64,000 bases of DNA from the NCBI GenBank assembly GCA_937936785.1, contig CALDDQ010000011.1, positions 18,251 through 82,250 on the forward strand, written 5' to 3'. Positions 24,525-27,045 of this stretch are shown piece by piece. The translations under genes were made by a program, and so were the position numbers. Numbering within the stretch: the first letter of the stretch is position 1; each line of letters begins with the position of its first letter. Under the pieces are notes generated by a model. That model was not told the DNA's origin. It saw nothing but the letters and a program-made list of their open reading frames with translations, and searched no databases. The DNA is from an uncultured Endomicrobiia bacterium (GTDB taxonomy: Bacteria > Elusimicrobiota > Endomicrobiia > DTEH01).

Positions 24525-24986
24525 TTAATTCTTATCCATACCAGAACAATCATAAAACTTACTTGCATCAAATTTTTTTGCTAACCTGTAAAAAAAAGAA
24601 TATCCTACTATCCGCACTGATCCTTTAGAAAAATTTATTTTTGTATTATACAAAATATCTAAAATCATATGCGACCAAACACCTATTATTAAACCTAATA
24701 AAATATCATTCTGAATATAAAAGTATAACAAAACTATAAAAAATGTAATTTCGTATGAATGAAAAAATAAAAATATTTTCCTAAAATTTCCATTGTGACA
24801 CTTGTAGAAAAATTCTTTTATGTTAATAGATACACTATTTTTTTCTATAAAATAATCTATTAAGTGATCTACGTCAATTAAAATCCCTGAGAATAATGAA
24901 GTTATTGATATAACAAAAGATTTAGTTAAAATGTACGTGGAGGTTGAAATTATAGTAGCACTTAACAGATGCGCAGACAGTTTCAT
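24525..24986 (-). CDS. DUF457/YdjM-like membrane-bound metal-dependent hydrolase
   Basis: 153 aa polytopic: MKLSAHLLSA, IDVDHLIDY, FLFFHSY and GVWSHMILD fit the His/Asp pattern of the DUF457 family. The ATG overlaps the upstream stop (ATGA). Confidence 0.65.
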   Translation of the reverse strand: MKLSAHLLSATIISTSTYILTKSFVISITSLFSGILIDVDHLIDYFIEKNSVSINIKEFFYKCHNGNFRKIFLFFHSYEITFFIVLLYFYIQNDILLGLIIGVWSHMILDILYNTKINFSKGSVRIVGYSFFYRLAKKFDASKFYDCSGMDKN

Positions 24987-26371
24987 ATTTTGTAATTTTC
25001 TAACTTAAACCCACAATTAGGTTTATAACAATACCCTTTCTCATAATGAGATAAACAATTTAAATCTTCTTCTTTATCAATTTCTGACAATATTAAATCT
25101 GAATAAATTCTTATATAAAAATTTGCTCTTGAAGCAGCATCATATTTAAACCATTCTTTTCCCCAACCAAAATCTCTTTCATATTTACTCCTTACAAGTC
25201 CTGCTATATGTTTTGGATGCCAGCCAAGTTTTAACAATACTCTTGTCAATGTTTGTAAATTTGTAGGTTTTAGTAAATGTTCGTTTGGACATATTAAACA
25301 GTGTCTAACACATAAAGGTAAAATGTTTGTGTCAAATATATCATAAGTTTTTGACCACATATTTGGTTTATCATGTTCTACTTTGTCAAACTCTGAATGT
25401 ATCTTAAACAAGGAAGAATTTTTATAATCATTTATTATCTTTGTTAAACTAATATCATTTTCTGGAATTATACAATCAACTTCTTGTGCATAAGATAAAA
25501 TTTTTTTAAAATCAGTTCTCATTGATAACAATTCTTTATATCCAAAGTATTCCTTACCTAAATACTCTCTTGGCAGGACTATAAATGGTTGTATGTTTTG
25601 TGTTGAAAACTTAAATTTGGAATAAATTTTATGTTTCTGATAACTTGAAAATGGAACACGAATGTCTCTTAAATAAATCGGATCTGCATACATAGATAGG
25701 TCAATAGAAATCGCTTCTTTATTTTTTCCCACACTAACATCACCATAAACTACGGGTAATCCCTTGTAATCTTTTAAATTTTTATACAAAACATTAGATA
25801 AGTATTCCAATATACGTCCAGCATTATGAAATCCTTGTCCACAAATTGTTGAAACTTTTTTTTGTCTTCGTTGTGAAACTGTTGAATATTTACCTTTTAA
25901 AGTTGATTCTATATCGCCAATTGATAACAACTCTTGGTGAGATTTAGATTCAAAAGGTACTTTAAAAACAAAATGATACCCTTGCCCTGTTTGTATTGTA
26001 ATAAAATTTATTTTGTAATAATCATAAATTTTCTTAAATCGTTGATAAATTTCTTCCAGTTTAAAATAAACTTTTTGTGGGTTAAAATATGCTTCTGCAT
26101 TATATTTTATGTTATAATACTCAAAATCTAAAACAAACAAAGTGAAATTTTTATCCCAAACAGATCTAAAAATGTCCGCCCCTATGTCTAATAACCAAAA
26201 AAATTTTTTATTGTTCACAGAAAGAAAAAAATCTGACTTTGTTATATTTTCTTTTACACCGACTAAATACTCACAAGAAAATTTTTCTGGATCTAACTCC
26301 GAAGAACCACAATATTGCGAAATTTTTTGTTGAACAGATATATTTTTGTAATATTCTTTAATATTAAACAT
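24983..26371 (-). CDS. Archaeo-eukaryotic primase (AEP) superfamily protein: PriS-like catalytic domain fused to PriL-like Cys-rich C-terminal domain
   Basis: 462 aa. Motif I is FTLFVLDFEYY (D82/E84). Motif II is QTGQGYHFVFKV (H133). Motif III is ISIDLSMYADPIYLRDIRVPFSSYQKHK (D224). The C-terminus carries ILPLCVRHCLICPNEHLLKPTNLQTLTRVLLKLGW ... FYIRIYS ... NCLSHYEKGYCYKPNCGF, which resembles the Fe-S domain of the primase large subunit. Recognised by eye only. Confidence 0.6.
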   Translation of the reverse strand: MFNIKEYYKNISVQQKISQYCGSSELDPEKFSCEYLVGVKENITKSDFFLSVNNKKFFWLLDIGADIFRSVWDKNFTLFVLDFEYYNIKYNAEAYFNPQKVYFKLEEIYQRFKKIYDYYKINFITIQTGQGYHFVFKVPFESKSHQELLSIGDIESTLKGKYSTVSQRRQKKVSTICGQGFHNAGRILEYLSNVLYKNLKDYKGLPVVYGDVSVGKNKEAISIDLSMYADPIYLRDIRVPFSSYQKHKIYSKFKFSTQNIQPFIVLPREYLGKEYFGYKELLSMRTDFKKILSYAQEVDCIIPENDISLTKIINDYKNSSLFKIHSEFDKVEHDKPNMWSKTYDIFDTNILPLCVRHCLICPNEHLLKPTNLQTLTRVLLKLGWHPKHIAGLVRSKYERDFGWGKEWFKYDAASRANFYIRIYSDLILSEIDKEEDLNCLSHYEKGYCYKPNCGFKLENYKI

Positions 26372-26376
26372 TTTTA

Positions 26377-27045
26377 CTATCTCTCTGACAAGAGTTTTAT
26401 TCTTTCTTTATTTATAATCTTTATTTTATTATTATAACTACGAACTAAGTAATTAAGTTTTTCTAACAAACTTATTATCCTTGAAACAGTTTCTCTATTA
26501 GCCCCAACTTTTTCTGCAAGTTCTGTTATAGAAATATTAACATTTCCATCTTTACCTAGAAATTCTAACAATGTCTGACTAACCCGTGCTAAAACAGGTT
26601 TAAAAACTAAATTTTTTATCTCGTGATCTGCAGAAAGTAATCTTTTAGATAATATCTTAATAATATTCATAGCAATTGAAGTGTTTCTCGCAATTAAATT
26701 GTAAAAATCTTTAAACCTAATGACTCCTACAACAGTTGGCTCTATGCATTCACACGTAGCGGACCGCATTCCAGTAAAAAAACCTATTTCACCTAAAACA
26801 TTACCTGACTGCAAATAATCAATTATTTTTTTCTTATTTTTTTCTCCTAAATAAACCACTACCTTGCCTGAAATTATAAAATATATGTCTTTTCCAAAAG
26901 TTGATTCAATAATAATTTTTTCTCCACGATTATAAAATTTTTGTTTTATCAAAGAAGCAATTTCTAACAATTCTTTCTTTTCTAATCCAGAAAATAATAC
27001 CGACTTTGAAATGTATCTGTATAATAACTTATTTTTTGATTTCAT
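26377..27045 (-). CDS. Crp/Fnr family transcriptional regulator (cNMP-binding domain + HTH)
   Basis: 222 aa. The cNMP-binding fold has GEIGFF...MRSATC (the Gly-Glu and Arg-Ser-Ala contacts as in CRP). The C-terminal HTH is ITELAEKVGANRETVSRIISLLEK. The ATG overlaps the DUF502 stop (ATGA). Confidence 0.88.
   Translation of the reverse strand: MKSKNKLLYRYISKSVLFSGLEKKELLEIASLIKQKFYNRGEKIIIESTFGKDIYFIISGKVVVYLGEKNKKKIIDYLQSGNVLGEIGFFTGMRSATCECIEPTVVGVIRFKDFYNLIARNTSIAMNIIKILSKRLLSADHEIKNLVFKPVLARVSQTLLEFLGKDGNVNISITELAEKVGANRETVSRIISLLEKLNYLVRSYNNKIKIINKERIKLLSER

What the first reader, a model, noticed from the sequence alone, without database searches (positions are those of the whole stretch)
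24983..26371. Single-chain PriS-like primase fused to a PriL-type cysteine-rich domain, embedded in a bacterial housekeeping array
This 462-aa ORF matches no standard bacterial housekeeping family that I recognise. Read by eye, it carries the three catalytic motifs of archaeo-eukaryotic primases in the correct order:
- Motif I (hhhDxE): FTLFVLDFEYY, with D82/E84.
- Motif II (sGxGYH): QTGQGYHFVFKV, with H133.
- Motif III: ISIDLSMYADPIYLRDIRVPFSSYQKHK, with D224. As I remember it, this parallels the hD..V....HLLKsPFsvHpKtG block of eukaryotic/archaeal PriS.

The I-to-II spacing is about 50 aa and the II-to-III spacing about 90 aa. That is PriS/PrimPol-like rather than plasmid-PrimPol-like.

The last 115 aa or so then resemble the Fe-S C-terminal domain of the large primase subunit:
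- ILPLCVRHCL (compare FPLCMR).
- HLLKPTNLQTLTRVLLKLGW (compare HL.H..R.....FLKgiG).
- FYIRIYS (compare YNIRHsYG).
- Terminal cysteines in NCLSHY and GYCYKPNCGF (compare fSC and hGCPF).

Bacteria normally prime with DnaG. Their AEPs are mostly LigD polymerase domains or mobile-element PrimPols. Here I see no integrase, repeat, tRNA junction or compositional break, and the gene is as AT-rich as its neighbours. It therefore looks like a resident chromosomal PriS-PriL(CTD) fusion. If that is correct, a complete two-subunit-type primase module in one bacterial polypeptide is unusual and may be undescribed in this context.
Basis: partly seen in the sequence, partly recalled or inferred. Interest (0 to 1): 0.8.

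Follow-up and report, generated by a model that had tools for sequence, protein, structure and literature searches.

The report
Chromosomal bacterial primase-like enzyme, nuclease partner
This gene encodes a member of a conserved, so far unannotated bacterial family with the catalytic fold of archaeal/eukaryotic-type primases joined to a four-cysteine helical domain; it sits in the chromosome, not in a mobile element, and in many relatives is adjacent or fused to an endonuclease IV-like enzyme, which points to DNA repair rather than routine replication.

Summary
No Pfam, NCBIfam, PHROG, PADLOC or PDB-sequence match exists. The ORF belongs to a full-length-conserved family found in 383 species-representative genomes, all annotated 'hypothetical'. 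An AlphaFold model (pLDDT 95) matches only AEP-superfamily enzymes among the top 36 PDB hits, best to Prim-PolC and LigD PolDom. D82, E/D84, H133 and D224 are 94-99% conserved. The C-terminal 167 residues form an all-helical domain with four Cys conserved at 93-99.6%. Its PriL relationship is suggestive only: PF04104 is sub-threshold (E 0.004), HH comparison gives P 0.03 but beats all shuffled controls with three Cys in register, and there is no PriL fold hit. The '1+3' Cys layout resembles the N. equitans single-chain primase. No relatives occur in viral, phage or plasmid collections, and neighbours are housekeeping genes. New findings: in 28 of 70 evaluable loci the next gene is an MJ1311-like TIM barrel that keeps the endonuclease IV metal ligands; two proteins are natural fusions of both; 20 loci carry a tandem paralogue instead. 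Best reading: a chromosomal primase-polymerase coupled to lesion incision. It is a new variant of a known kind.

The parts
24983..26371 (-). Complete 462-aa ORF. It belongs to an unannotated family of about 465 aa conserved along its full length.
   Evidence: ORF list. 163 homologues, all 'hypothetical' and without Pfam domains. 623 cluster representatives at 50% identity. 383 species genomes.
25487..26371 (-). N-terminal AEP-type catalytic domain (residues 1-295).
   Evidence: AlphaFold model pLDDT 95.3. The top 36 Foldseek PDB hits are all AEP enzymes, best Prim-PolC 6sa0 at E 2.9e-3, prob 1.0. The viral library also returns primases.
26114..26146 (-). Motif I (hhhDhE): FTLFVLDFEYY, with D82 and E84.
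   Evidence: Lies on strand 76-87 of the model. D82 is 97% conserved and position 84 is acidic in 98% of 231 sequences.
25958..25993 (-). Motif II (sxH): QTGQGYHFVFKV, with G131 and H133.
   Evidence: Lies on strand 131-139. G131 is 100% and H133 94% conserved.
25628..25711 (-). Motif III (hD) plus a nucleotide-binding-type R-x-P-F-S-x-x-x-K-H block, with D224, R238, S242, K246 and H247.
   Evidence: D224 lies at the end of strand 219-224. Conservation: D224 99%, R235 97%, R238 97%, K246 92%.
24986..25486 (-). C-terminal all-helical four-cysteine domain (residues 296-462). It occupies the position of PriL-CTD, PriCT or the helix-bundle domain of primases. The Cys codons are at 25310-25312 (C354), 25055-25057 (C439), 25028-25030 (C448) and 25013-25015 (C453).
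   Evidence: Domain-only model pLDDT 92.3, all alpha. Cys conservation 93%, 99%, 99.6% and 94%. PF04104 is the sole Pfam hit, E 0.004, below threshold. HH comparison with PriL-CTD gives P 0.03, above all shuffles, with three Cys in register. No significant PDB fold hit.
26377..27045 (-). Upstream Crp-family regulator (cNMP-binding plus HTH), 5 bp from the ORF start. This neighbour is conserved in Endomicrobia relatives.
   Evidence: Pfam. The Crp cluster sits at position -1 or -2 in 10 loci.
24525..24986 (-). Downstream 153-aa membrane ORF that overlaps the stop codon by 4 bp. It is weakly YdjM-like (metal-dependent hydrolase).
   Evidence: Pfam E 0.006 and NCBIfam E 0.0025, both below cutoffs. 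It is conserved downstream only in the closest relative, L004.

Best explanation
The ORF encodes a resident, chromosomal member of a previously unannotated bacterial family of AEP-superfamily nucleotidyltransferases (primase-polymerases) built as a single chain. The N-terminal domain (about residues 1-295) carries the metal-binding acidic triad (D82, E84, D224), the motif II histidine (H133) and a basic R/K/H block for the incoming nucleotide triphosphate. The C-terminal helical domain (296-462) uses four conserved cysteines to hold a metal centre, most likely a [4Fe-4S] cluster as in PriL-CTD, and less likely zinc. This domain is inferred to do what PriL-CTD, PriCT and helix-bundle domains do in other AEPs, namely hold the template and the initiating nucleotide or 5' end. 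In a large fraction of relatives the enzyme is encoded next to, or fused with, an MJ1311-like TIM-barrel phosphodiesterase that keeps the metal ligands of endonuclease IV. The most likely job is therefore DNA damage processing. The nuclease would incise or clean an abasic or blocked site, and the AEP would resynthesise across the gap or re-prime beyond it. This parallels Prim-PolC working with Endo IV in mycobacterial base excision repair. Shown: the fold, residue conservation, chromosomal context, and partner adjacency and fusion. Inferred: the metal cluster, the DNA substrate, and the repair role. The overall confidence of 0.55 is for the whole statement. By sub-claim: intact AEP-type enzyme about 0.9; Cys4 domain is a PriL/PriCT-type metal-binding accessory domain about 0.65; repair role coupled to the Endo IV-like partner about 0.5.
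For: 1. A confident model (pLDDT 95.3, pTM 0.94) matches only AEPs in PDB ranks 1-36: Prim-PolC, LigD PolDom, CAPP, pRN1, human PriS and PrimPol. The viral structure library returns primases.
2. Motifs I, II and III lie on beta-strands, as the AEP definition in PMC10250227 requires. They are 94-100% conserved over 265 sequences.
3. The four Cys are 93-99.6% conserved. Their 1+3 layout, with the last Cys 9 residues from the C-terminus, parallels the verified [4Fe-4S] ligands C289/C364/C376/C384 of the 393-aa NEQ395.
4. PF04104 is the only Pfam family hit by the C-terminal consensus (E 0.004) and by 8 of 57 members. The HH score against PriL-CTD exceeds the reversed control and 30 of 30 shuffled controls, with three Cys in register.
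5. Of 70 evaluable loci, 28 have the TIM-barrel gene immediately downstream on the same strand. Two proteins are natural fusions (one confirmed as a single gene). The genes carry adjacent locus tags in cultured Methylacidimicrobium.
6. The partner aligns to E. coli Nfo at 96.8% probability. Eight invariant residues fall on Nfo ligands H109, E145, D179, H182, H216, D229, H231 and E261.
7. Published precedent exists for an AEP working with Endo IV in repair (PMC5663958).
8. No relatives occur in viral contigs, phages or plasmids, and neighbours are housekeeping genes.
Against: 1. No sequence profile of any AEP family matches, even with a consensus query. Foldseek E-values are modest (>= 2.9e-3) and TM-scores are 0.35-0.58.
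2. The C-terminal domain alone has no significant fold match and no PriL-CTD hit. PF04104 is below its gathering score, and the HH probability is only 1.7%.
3. The window itself has no TIM-barrel partner within its 64 kb. 42 of 70 evaluable loci lack it next door.
4. The partner's nearest relatives are an uncharacterised protein (MJ1311) and sugar epimerases, ahead of Endo IV. A second Endo IV-like protein of P. furiosus (PF1383) showed no AP-endonuclease or DNA-binding activity (PMC2770678). I did not establish whether PF1383 belongs to the MJ1311-like group.
5. No ligase or Ku recurs nearby.
6. No biochemical data exist for any member.
Confidence: 0.55

Rival explanations
1. Dedicated primase: a complete single-chain PriS-PriL(CTD) primase that synthesises primers de novo, acting as a second cellular primase or replication-restart primase beside DnaG, with no special link to excision repair.
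For: The AEP catalytic domain is joined to a helical four-Cys domain. That domain type is required for dinucleotide initiation in PriSL, NEQ395 and pRN1 and is absent from the pure repair Prim-Pols LigD and Prim-PolC. The architecture and Cys layout parallel NEQ395. Both tandem paralogues keep all catalytic residues. The window copy has no nuclease partner nearby.
Against: The closest structures are repair Prim-Pols, not PriS. Gene fusion and adjacency with an Endo IV-type enzyme are hard to explain for a replication primase. No helicase, replisome or origin genes recur nearby. Bacteria uniformly use DnaG (abstract of PMC5862659). The family occurs in only 383 of about 185,579 species genomes. 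This view is not exclusive of the best explanation, since re-priming at lesions would combine both.
Confidence: 0.2
2. Not a DNA enzyme: a palm-fold nucleotidyltransferase with a metal-cluster domain that works with a TIM-barrel isomerase or phosphodiesterase on RNA, a nucleotide-sugar or a cofactor. The cobamide phosphodiesterase CbiR is a precedent within the same TIM-barrel superfamily.
For: The partner is annotated everywhere as 'sugar phosphate isomerase/epimerase'. Its NCBIfam and PDB matches to epimerases, IolI and CbiR are as good as or better than those to Nfo. The pair often sits upstream of hisS and aspS in a housekeeping cluster. One member carries N-terminal CBS domains, which are typical of metabolite sensing. 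No AEP sequence profile matches.
Against: All significant structural neighbours are nucleic-acid primase-polymerases, and adenylyl cyclases appear only at E > 1. The partner keeps the full Endo IV-type ligand set (eight aligned, a ninth invariant His), whereas from general knowledge sugar epimerases of this fold use a four-residue single-metal site. To my knowledge, no AEP is known to act on small molecules.
Confidence: 0.15
3. Ordinary mobile-element or defence-system PrimPol that merely appears chromosomal in this window.
For: Most bacterial AEPs outside LigD are encoded by mobile elements (PMC5862659). One locus (L001) has IS605 and AbiE genes a few kb upstream. The family is patchily distributed across phyla.
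Against: No relative was found in 2.9 million viral contigs, 50,697 phage records or 72,556 plasmids. There is no PHROG or PADLOC hit. Recurrent neighbours are hisS, aspS, DUF374, Crp, LpoB and similar genes, with no integrase, helicase or phage genes. Composition is uniform and no tRNA junction is present. Local synteny is conserved among Endomicrobia.
Confidence: 0.03
4. The AEP resemblance is convergent or spurious: a different alpha/beta fold whose short motifs mimic the AEP motifs.
For: No sequence-profile support exists. Foldseek E-values never fall below 1e-3, and rmsd is 6-7 A.
Against: 36 consecutive top PDB hits come from one superfamily, with Foldseek probability up to 1.00. An independent library gives the same answer. 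The three motifs occur in the correct order, on the correct secondary-structure elements, and are the most conserved positions of the family.
Confidence: 0.04

Closest known systems
NEQ395, the monomeric PriS-PriL primase of Nanoarchaeum equitans (PMC10250227)
   Same: It is a single chain with an N-terminal AEP catalytic domain and a C-terminal helical Cys4 domain, and it is a cellular (chromosomal) gene. Its four ligand cysteines follow a 1+3 layout (C289/C364/C376/C384 against C354/C439/C448/C453 here). In both proteins the last Cys lies 9 residues from the C-terminus.
   Different: NEQ395 is archaeal and is the sole replicative primase of its organism. Its domains are recognisably PriS and PriL by HHpred, and its [4Fe-4S] cluster is verified. 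The present family is bacterial, matches no PriS profile and matches PriL only below threshold. It is about 70 aa longer, is modelled as a rigid two-domain body (pTM 0.94), and is linked to an Endo IV-type partner.
Prim-PolC and LigD PolDom, the bacterial repair AEPs (PDB 6sa0, 5op0, 2r9l; PMC5663958)
   Same: They are the best structural matches of the catalytic domain. They are chromosomal bacterial AEPs. Prim-PolC fills gaps that Endo IV has processed, which is a functional parallel to the nuclease partnership seen here.
   Different: They have no C-terminal Cys4 helical domain. They are associated with LigC, LigD or Ku, none of which recurs near this family. They are recognised by existing sequence profiles, whereas this family is not.
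Mobile-element prim-pols with PriCT or helix-bundle domains (pRN1 ORF904, PolpTN2, RepB', the PrimPol-PV1 supergroup; PMC5862659)
   Same: An AEP domain is fused to an alpha-helical accessory domain related to PriL Fe-S_N. The only primase-related fold hits of the C-terminal model are to the pRN1 helix-bundle domain, and these are weak.
   Different: Those enzymes are encoded on plasmids, phages and integrated elements and are often fused to helicases. This family is absent from viral, phage and plasmid collections, has no helicase, and has no PriCT Pfam hit.
Eukaryotic and archaeal PriL C-terminal [4Fe-4S] domain (PF04104; PDB 3q36, 3lgb)
   Same: PF04104 is the only Pfam family detected, below threshold. 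LPPCV aligns with FPPCM, LLKxGW with FLKGIG, and three Cys align with C287, C367 and C384 in a relaxed HH alignment.
   Different: The score is below the gathering threshold, the HH probability is 1.7%, and there is no Foldseek match. The domain is shorter, and its fourth Cys lies 5 residues after the third instead of 40.
Partner protein: endonuclease IV (Nfo) and the uncharacterised MJ1311 (PDB 3wqo)
   Same: It is a TIM barrel of PF01261. MJ1311 is the closest solved relative (E 2e-40). Eight invariant residues align with Nfo metal ligands, and a ninth invariant His is present.
   Different: It scores far below the NCBIfam nfo cutoffs. Sugar epimerases score as well as or better than Nfo. 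No activity is known for MJ1311.

Membership tests
AEP (archaeo-eukaryotic primase) superfamily | Catalytic core fold: (alpha-beta)2 plus RRM-like. | tested here: met
   Foldseek with a pLDDT-95 model gives AEP enzymes at PDB ranks 1-36, with probability up to 1.00 and best E 2.9e-3. Primases also lead the viral library. E-values are modest.
AEP (archaeo-eukaryotic primase) superfamily | Motif I hhhDhD/E, motif II sxH and motif III hD/E, in order and on beta-strands. | tested here: met
   FVLDFE lies on strand 76-87, GYH on strand 131-139 and ID at the end of strand 219-224. Conservation is 94-100% over 265 sequences. The motif definition comes from PMC10250227.
AEP (archaeo-eukaryotic primase) superfamily | Match to a curated AEP sequence profile (DNA_primase_S, Prim-Pol, LigD polymerase and others). 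| tested here: not met
   No AEP family appears at E <= 10 for the protein, for 57 members or for consensus queries. A family profile against PDB sequences finds nothing.
AEP (archaeo-eukaryotic primase) superfamily | Template-dependent primer synthesis or extension. | not testable with these tools
   Requires biochemistry.
PriL C-terminal Fe-S domain (PF04104) | Profile match above the Pfam gathering score. | tested here: not met
   The consensus scores 17.0 bits, E 0.004, against a 22.4-bit cutoff. 8 of 57 members hit at E < 1, best 0.012. PF04104 is nevertheless the only family hit repeatedly.
PriL C-terminal Fe-S domain (PF04104) | Profile-profile similarity to authentic PriL-CTDs. | tested here: inconclusive
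   hhalign score 19.3, P 0.03, probability 1.7%. The reversed control scores 10.0 and 30 shuffles reach at most 16.6. Three Cys are in register. Only eukaryotic PriL sequences were available for the template profile.
PriL C-terminal Fe-S domain (PF04104) | Four conserved cysteine ligands bridging two helical subdomains. | tested here: met
   C354, C439, C448 and C453 are 93-99.6% conserved. The layout resembles that of NEQ395.
PriL C-terminal Fe-S domain (PF04104) | Fold similarity to solved PriL-CTD structures. | tested here: not met
   A domain-only model (pLDDT 92.3) gives no hit at E <= 0.001 and no PriL-CTD among 17 hits. The only primase-related hits are to the pRN1 helix-bundle domain (E 4-7.5, prob <= 0.15).
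PriL C-terminal Fe-S domain (PF04104) | Bound [4Fe-4S] cluster. | not testable with these tools
   Needs anaerobic purification with UV-vis at 410 nm and EPR.
Mobile-element PrimPols (PrimPol-PV1, PriCT-bearing) | Encoded within plasmids, phages or integrated elements. | tested here: not met
   No relatives in IMG/VR, INPHARED or PLSDB. Recurrent neighbours are housekeeping genes. No PHROG hit.
LigD / Prim-PolC repair Prim-Pols | Genomic association with an ATP-dependent ligase or Ku. | tested here: not met
   Neither appears among the 25 largest neighbour clusters in 80 loci.
Endonuclease IV (Nfo) - partner protein only | Nine metal-ligand residues: H69, H109, E145, D179, H182, H216, D229, H231 and E261. 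| tested here: met
   hhalign gives probability 96.8%, E 3e-10, with eight ligands aligned to invariant partner residues. An invariant H69 lies upstream of the aligned block. The Nfo sequence was recalled from memory, and I checked that the residue type at each of the nine published ligand positions is correct.
Endonuclease IV (Nfo) - partner protein only | Score above the NCBIfam nfo / deoxyribonuclease IV cutoffs. | tested here: not met
   Scores are 15-30 bits against cutoffs of 130-333. The closest solved relative is the uncharacterised MJ1311.

The most novel reading that the evidence does not exclude
This is a bona fide single-chain Fe-S primase lineage native to bacterial chromosomes, homologous to the archaeal PriS-PriL(CTD) arrangement. 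It forms a dedicated two-enzyme lesion-bypass or repair module with a new Endo IV-like nuclease (MJ1311 family), in which incision at an abasic or blocked site is coupled to de novo priming or gap synthesis. That would amount to an undescribed bacterial DNA repair pathway, and it would also assign a function to the orphan MJ1311 family.
Probability: 0.3. Interest if true: 0.8.

Novelty: new variant of a known kind. Interest (0 to 1): 0.62.

Why it matters
Bacterial AEPs are currently viewed as either LigD-type repair polymerases or mobile-element replication primases. This family fits neither group. It is chromosomal and missing from Pfam, NCBIfam and the literature I could search. It combines a primase-type accessory Cys4 domain with a repair-type partner, an Endo IV-like nuclease to which it is sometimes fused. 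If the proposed coupling is real, it defines a new excision/re-priming module in poorly studied phyla: Elusimicrobiota, Hydrogenedentota, Auribacterota and Methylacidiphilaceae. It would also suggest a role for the structurally solved but functionally orphan MJ1311 family. Finally, it would provide a compact, single-chain and probably Fe-S-bearing primase model from cultivable bacteria (Methylacidimicrobium), useful for the unresolved question of what the PriL cluster does.

Tried and rejected
1. Direct profile searches of the protein, 57 members and consensus sequences against Pfam, NCBIfam, PHROGs and PADLOC gave no AEP hit. The only repeated signal was sub-threshold PF04104.
2. phmmer and hmmsearch against PDB sequences, with the protein, the full alignment and the C-terminal alignment, found nothing relevant.
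3. A weak Y1_Tnp (IS200 transposase) hit at residues 304-347 (E 0.0013, below cutoff) occurs in 1 of 57 members, so I rejected it as chance.
4. hhalign of the C-terminal profile against the single human p58C sequence was uninformative.
5. Foldseek with the C-terminal domain alone gave no PriL match.
6. I tried to obtain the NEQ395 sequence from that paper's supplement, but none is held.
7. The partner-profile search of the large protein database was limited by the word index. It gave 21 hits and no archaeal contexts. A distant TIM-barrel hit (P0403) sits among transporters and is not part of this subfamily.
8. A CHC2 zinc-finger reading (C439/H442/C448/C453) was considered and rejected because position 442 varies (H, Q or T) in the alignment.
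9. The downstream YdjM-like ORF was considered as a conserved partner and rejected, because it is conserved only in L004.
10. I did not find dnaG among the window ORFs I annotated.
Full report
**Observation**

The window contains an ATG-initiated ORF of 462 codons at 24983-26371 on the minus strand. I verified the coordinates by translation:

| Feature | Peptide | Window coordinates |
|---|---|---|
| Motif I (D82, E84) | FTLFVLDFEYY | 26114-26146 |
| Motif II (H133) | QTGQGYHFVFKV | 25958-25993 |
| Motif III (D224) | ISIDLSMYADPIYLRDIRVPFSSYQKHK | 25628-25711 |
| C354, C439, C448, C453 | single codons | 25310-12, 25055-57, 25028-30, 25013-15 |

Base composition is flat at about 26% GC across the window. 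The only tRNA lies 14 kb away. The flanking genes, all on the same strand, are DUF502, a Crp-type regulator 5 bp upstream, a small membrane ORF overlapping the stop codon, YajC, an HD protein, SecD, SecF and a PcrA/UvrD helicase. Further out lie RecG, CTP synthase, the CCA-adding enzyme, PurL, GuaA, ribonucleotide reductase and SerA.

**A real but unannotated family**

The protein has no hit in Pfam, NCBIfam, PHROGs or PADLOC. It also has no hit among PDB sequences. It nevertheless has 163 close homologues, nearly all 455-495 aa and aligned end to end. None has a Pfam domain, and every name given by a source is 'hypothetical protein'. An exhaustive profile search finds 623 cluster representatives at 50% identity. 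A scan of one genome per species finds relatives in 383 genomes. The hosts include Elusimicrobiota/Endomicrobia (closest, about 70% identity), Hydrogenedentota, Auribacterota, Lindowbacteria, Schekmanbacteria and other PVC-group bacteria. The cultured hosts are Methylacidiphilaceae, namely Methylacidimicrobium cyclopophantes and Verrucomicrobia LP2A. A few MAGs are labelled archaeal.

**Catalytic domain**

An AlphaFold model built from a 57-sequence alignment is very confident (mean pLDDT 95.3, pTM 0.94). Foldseek against the PDB returns AEP-superfamily enzymes at ranks 1 to 36. These are Prim-PolC (best, E 2.9e-3, probability 1.00), LigD PolDom, the CRISPR-associated Prim-Pol, pRN1 primase, human PriS, human PrimPol and the ASFV PrimPol. 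Unrelated palm enzymes such as adenylyl cyclases appear only at E > 1.

The viral structure library gives the same picture, with phage primases, DUF927 primase-helicases and an archaeal-virus 'AEP primase large subunit' entry. E-values are modest and TM-scores are 0.35-0.58, so this is a remote relationship. Even so, one superfamily fills the top of both lists.

The three defining motifs, as defined in PMC10250227, are hhhDhD/E, sxH and hD/E. They are all present in order and sit on the predicted beta-strands 76-87, 131-139 and 219-224. They are among the best-conserved positions of the family over 265 sequences:

| Position | Conservation |
|---|---|
| D82 | 97% |
| Acidic residue at 84 | 98% |
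| G131 | 100% |
| H133 | 94% |
| D224 | 99% |
| R235, R238 | 97% each |
| K246 | 92% |

No curated AEP sequence profile matches, even with consensus queries. I therefore conclude that this is a divergent, catalytically intact AEP family. Structurally it sits nearer the bacterial repair Prim-Pols than PriS.

**C-terminal domain**

Residues 296-462 model as an all-helical domain (domain-only model, pLDDT 92.3). Four cysteines are conserved at 93%, 99%, 99.6% and 94%. The window's additional C358 and C361 are not conserved. Tests of the 'PriL-type' claim gave mixed results.

In favour:
- PF04104 (DNA_primase_lrg) is the only Pfam family hit by the C-terminal consensus. The match is E 0.004 at 17.0 bits and covers profile positions 71-169.
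- PF04104 is also the only family hit by more than two of the 57 members: 8 members, best E 0.012.
- I built profiles of 246 family C-terminal domains and about 100 authentic PF04104-bearing PriL-CTDs. The PriL set was recovered with the human p58C sequence, which I checked against PDB entry 3q36.
- With these profiles the HH score is 19.3 (P 0.03). The reversed template scores 10.0, and 30 column-shuffled templates reach at most 16.6.
- The relaxed alignment puts C354, C439 and C448 on the human ligands C287, C367 and C384.
- The '1+3' cysteine layout, with the last Cys 9 residues from the C-terminus, mirrors the verified [4Fe-4S] ligands C289, C364, C376 and C384 of the 393-aa single-chain primase NEQ395 (PMC10250227).

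Against:
- The Pfam score is below the 22.4-bit gathering cutoff.
- The HH probability is only 1.7%.
- Foldseek with the isolated domain finds no PriL-CTD and nothing at E <= 0.001.
- The only primase-related fold hits are weak ones to the pRN1 helix-bundle domain (E 4-7.5). Kazlauskas et al. identify that domain as PriCT-1 and relate it to PriL Fe-S_N (PMC5862659).

My reading is as follows. A metal-binding Cys4 helical domain occupies the position of the PriL-CTD/PriCT accessory module. It is probably (about 65%) a remote homologue, but membership is not demonstrated. Fe-S and zinc cannot be distinguished computationally.

**Not a mobile element**

The family has no relative in 2.9 million viral contigs, 50,697 phage records or 72,556 plasmids. 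I clustered the neighbours in about 80 loci. The recurrent ones are hisS, aspS, a DUF374 protein, Crp, DUF502, LpoB and phoH, with no integrase, helicase or phage gene. Endomicrobia relatives share the window's DUF502-Crp upstream synteny.

**New context evidence**

In three unrelated genomes the gene is followed on the same strand by a PF01261 TIM-barrel gene. Of the 70 loci with enough downstream sequence, the contexts are:

| Downstream context | Loci |
|---|---|
| TIM-barrel gene (23 within 300 bp, 27 within about 450 bp) | 28 |
| Tandem paralogue of the family | 20 |
| Neither (includes the window) | 22 |

The first two arrangements never co-occur. Both paralogues retain every catalytic and Cys residue.

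Two database proteins (P0151, 747 aa; P0166, 724 aa) are natural fusions in the order family protein then TIM barrel. One of them is confirmed as a single called gene on its contig. In cultured M. cyclopophantes the two genes carry adjacent locus tags, MAMC_00698 and MAMC_00699. A further independent locus shows a 465-aa no-Pfam gene overlapping the TIM-barrel gene start.

The window itself has no TIM-barrel homologue within its 64 kb. An Endomicrobiia relative at 50% identity (L007) does have it adjacent.

**The partner protein**

The partner is not a member of any named equivalog in NCBIfam. Its closest solved relative by far is the uncharacterised M. jannaschii MJ1311 (3wqo, E 2e-40). After that come IolI, ketose 3-epimerases (about 1e-17) and endonuclease IV entries (6e-13 to 1e-9). 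MJ1311 is listed only as the predicted Nfo homologue of M. jannaschii in PMC2770678.

A profile-sequence HH alignment to E. coli Nfo is significant (probability 96.8%, E 3e-10). It places the partner's invariant H111, E153, D184, H187, H211, D220, H222 and E251 on Nfo ligands H109, E145, D179, H182, H216, D229, H231 and E261. A ninth invariant His (H69) lies upstream of the aligned block. The Nfo sequence was recalled from memory, and I checked that the residue type at each of the nine published ligand positions is correct.

The partner therefore looks like an Endo IV-type multi-metal phosphodiesterase. It does not look like a single-metal sugar epimerase. Its substrate is unknown.

**Mechanism proposed**

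Shown:
- An intact AEP active site.
- A conserved Cys4 helical domain rigidly packed on the catalytic domain.
- Chromosomal residence.
- Gene-order and gene-fusion linkage to an Endo IV-type enzyme.

Inferred:
- The enzyme polymerises nucleotides on a DNA template.
- The Cys4 domain carries a [4Fe-4S] cluster, or zinc, and helps bind the template and the initiating nucleotide or 5' end, as PriL-CTD, PriCT and helix-bundle domains do.
- Together with the nuclease, the enzyme processes lesions: incision or 3'-end cleaning, followed by gap synthesis or re-priming.

A precedent exists in mycobacterial Prim-PolC, which is also the best structural match. It fills gaps prepared by Endo IV during base excision repair (PMC5663958). 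An accessory initiation-type domain is absent from Prim-PolC and LigD. Its presence here leaves genuine priming (re-priming at damage) as a real possibility.

The rival explanations are given separately with their evidence: a replication primase, a non-DNA nucleotidyltransferase paired with a sugar or cofactor TIM barrel, a mobile-element PrimPol, and a spurious fold resemblance.

**Novelty**

Single-chain AEP plus PriL-like enzymes are already known: NEQ395, PolpTN2, pRN1 and RepB'. Repair AEPs in bacterial chromosomes are also known: LigD and Prim-PolC. Four things appear undescribed in the literature I could search:
- This particular family, which is absent from Pfam and NCBIfam.
- Its combination of a primase-type Cys4 accessory domain with chromosomal, non-mobile residence in bacteria.
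- Its linkage and fusion to an MJ1311/Endo IV-like enzyme.
- The alternative tandem-paralogue arrangement.

I rate it a new variant of a known kind. Interest is moderate to high for specialists in primases and DNA repair. The main limits are the absence of any biochemical data and the unresolved PriL homology.

Noticed in passing
L064:7680-9611 and L064:9632-11125 (also L009, L019, L024, L037, L042, L047, L059, L063, L069, L070, L074 and others): In 20 loci the family occurs as two tandem, same-strand paralogues. Both keep all catalytic and Cys residues, and copy 2 changes motif II G129 to A, S or T. This arrangement never co-occurs with the adjacent TIM-barrel gene, which may mean a heterodimer substitutes for, or is regulated differently from, the nuclease-linked form.
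   Followed up: partly
L001:9409-10272, L002:9439-10320, L003:9734-10576; fusion proteins P0151 and P0166 (L085:562-2805): An MJ1311-like PF01261 TIM-barrel family keeps the endonuclease IV metal ligands but is annotated everywhere as 'sugar phosphate isomerase/epimerase'. It is adjacent to, or fused with, the AEP-like family. The function of MJ1311 itself (PDB 3wqo) is unknown.
   Followed up: partly
window:24525-24986 (-): A 153-aa predicted membrane ORF overlaps the stop codon of the AEP-like gene by 4 bp (ATGA). It is weakly similar to YdjM-type membrane-bound metal-dependent hydrolases (E 0.0025-0.006, below cutoffs). It is conserved downstream only in the closest relative, L004.
   Followed up: partly
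window:23443-24105 (-): A 220-aa HD-domain protein lies between yajC and secD. It has weak similarity to the HD region of a DVU_1551-family NTP transferase and of Cas10/Csm1 (E 4e-5 to 2e-3, far below cutoffs). Its function is unclear.
   Followed up: no
P0201 (612 aa; not in the window): One family member carries an N-terminal CBS-domain pair (PF00571, E 3.5e-23). This suggests regulation by an adenosine-containing ligand in that lineage. P0143 (591 aa) has an unassigned 128-aa N-terminal extension.
   Followed up: no
P0101, P0112, P0115; L061, L079: A few family members come from MAGs labelled Nanoarchaeota, Thermoplasmata, Korarchaeota or Micrarchaeota, at about 38-45% identity to the bacterial proteins. 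I did not examine whether this reflects real archaeal carriage, horizontal transfer or mis-binning.
   Followed up: no
window:27653-28138 (-): A 161-aa ORF with an N-terminal hydrophobic segment has no Pfam match. It sits between gatC-like and DUF502 genes and is uncharacterised.
   Followed up: no
L001:1-3523: In Verrucomicrobia LP2A, IS605/IS200 transposase genes (OrfB, Y1_Tnp) and an AbiEi/AbiEii toxin-antitoxin pair lie 4-8 kb upstream of the family gene. A two-component system separates them from it. They are not part of the conserved context in other genomes.
   Followed up: no
window:50052-52376 (-): A ribonucleotide reductase large-subunit homologue carries a C-terminal TSCPD domain. 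I noted it while annotating the window. It appears to be an ordinary housekeeping gene.
   Followed up: no
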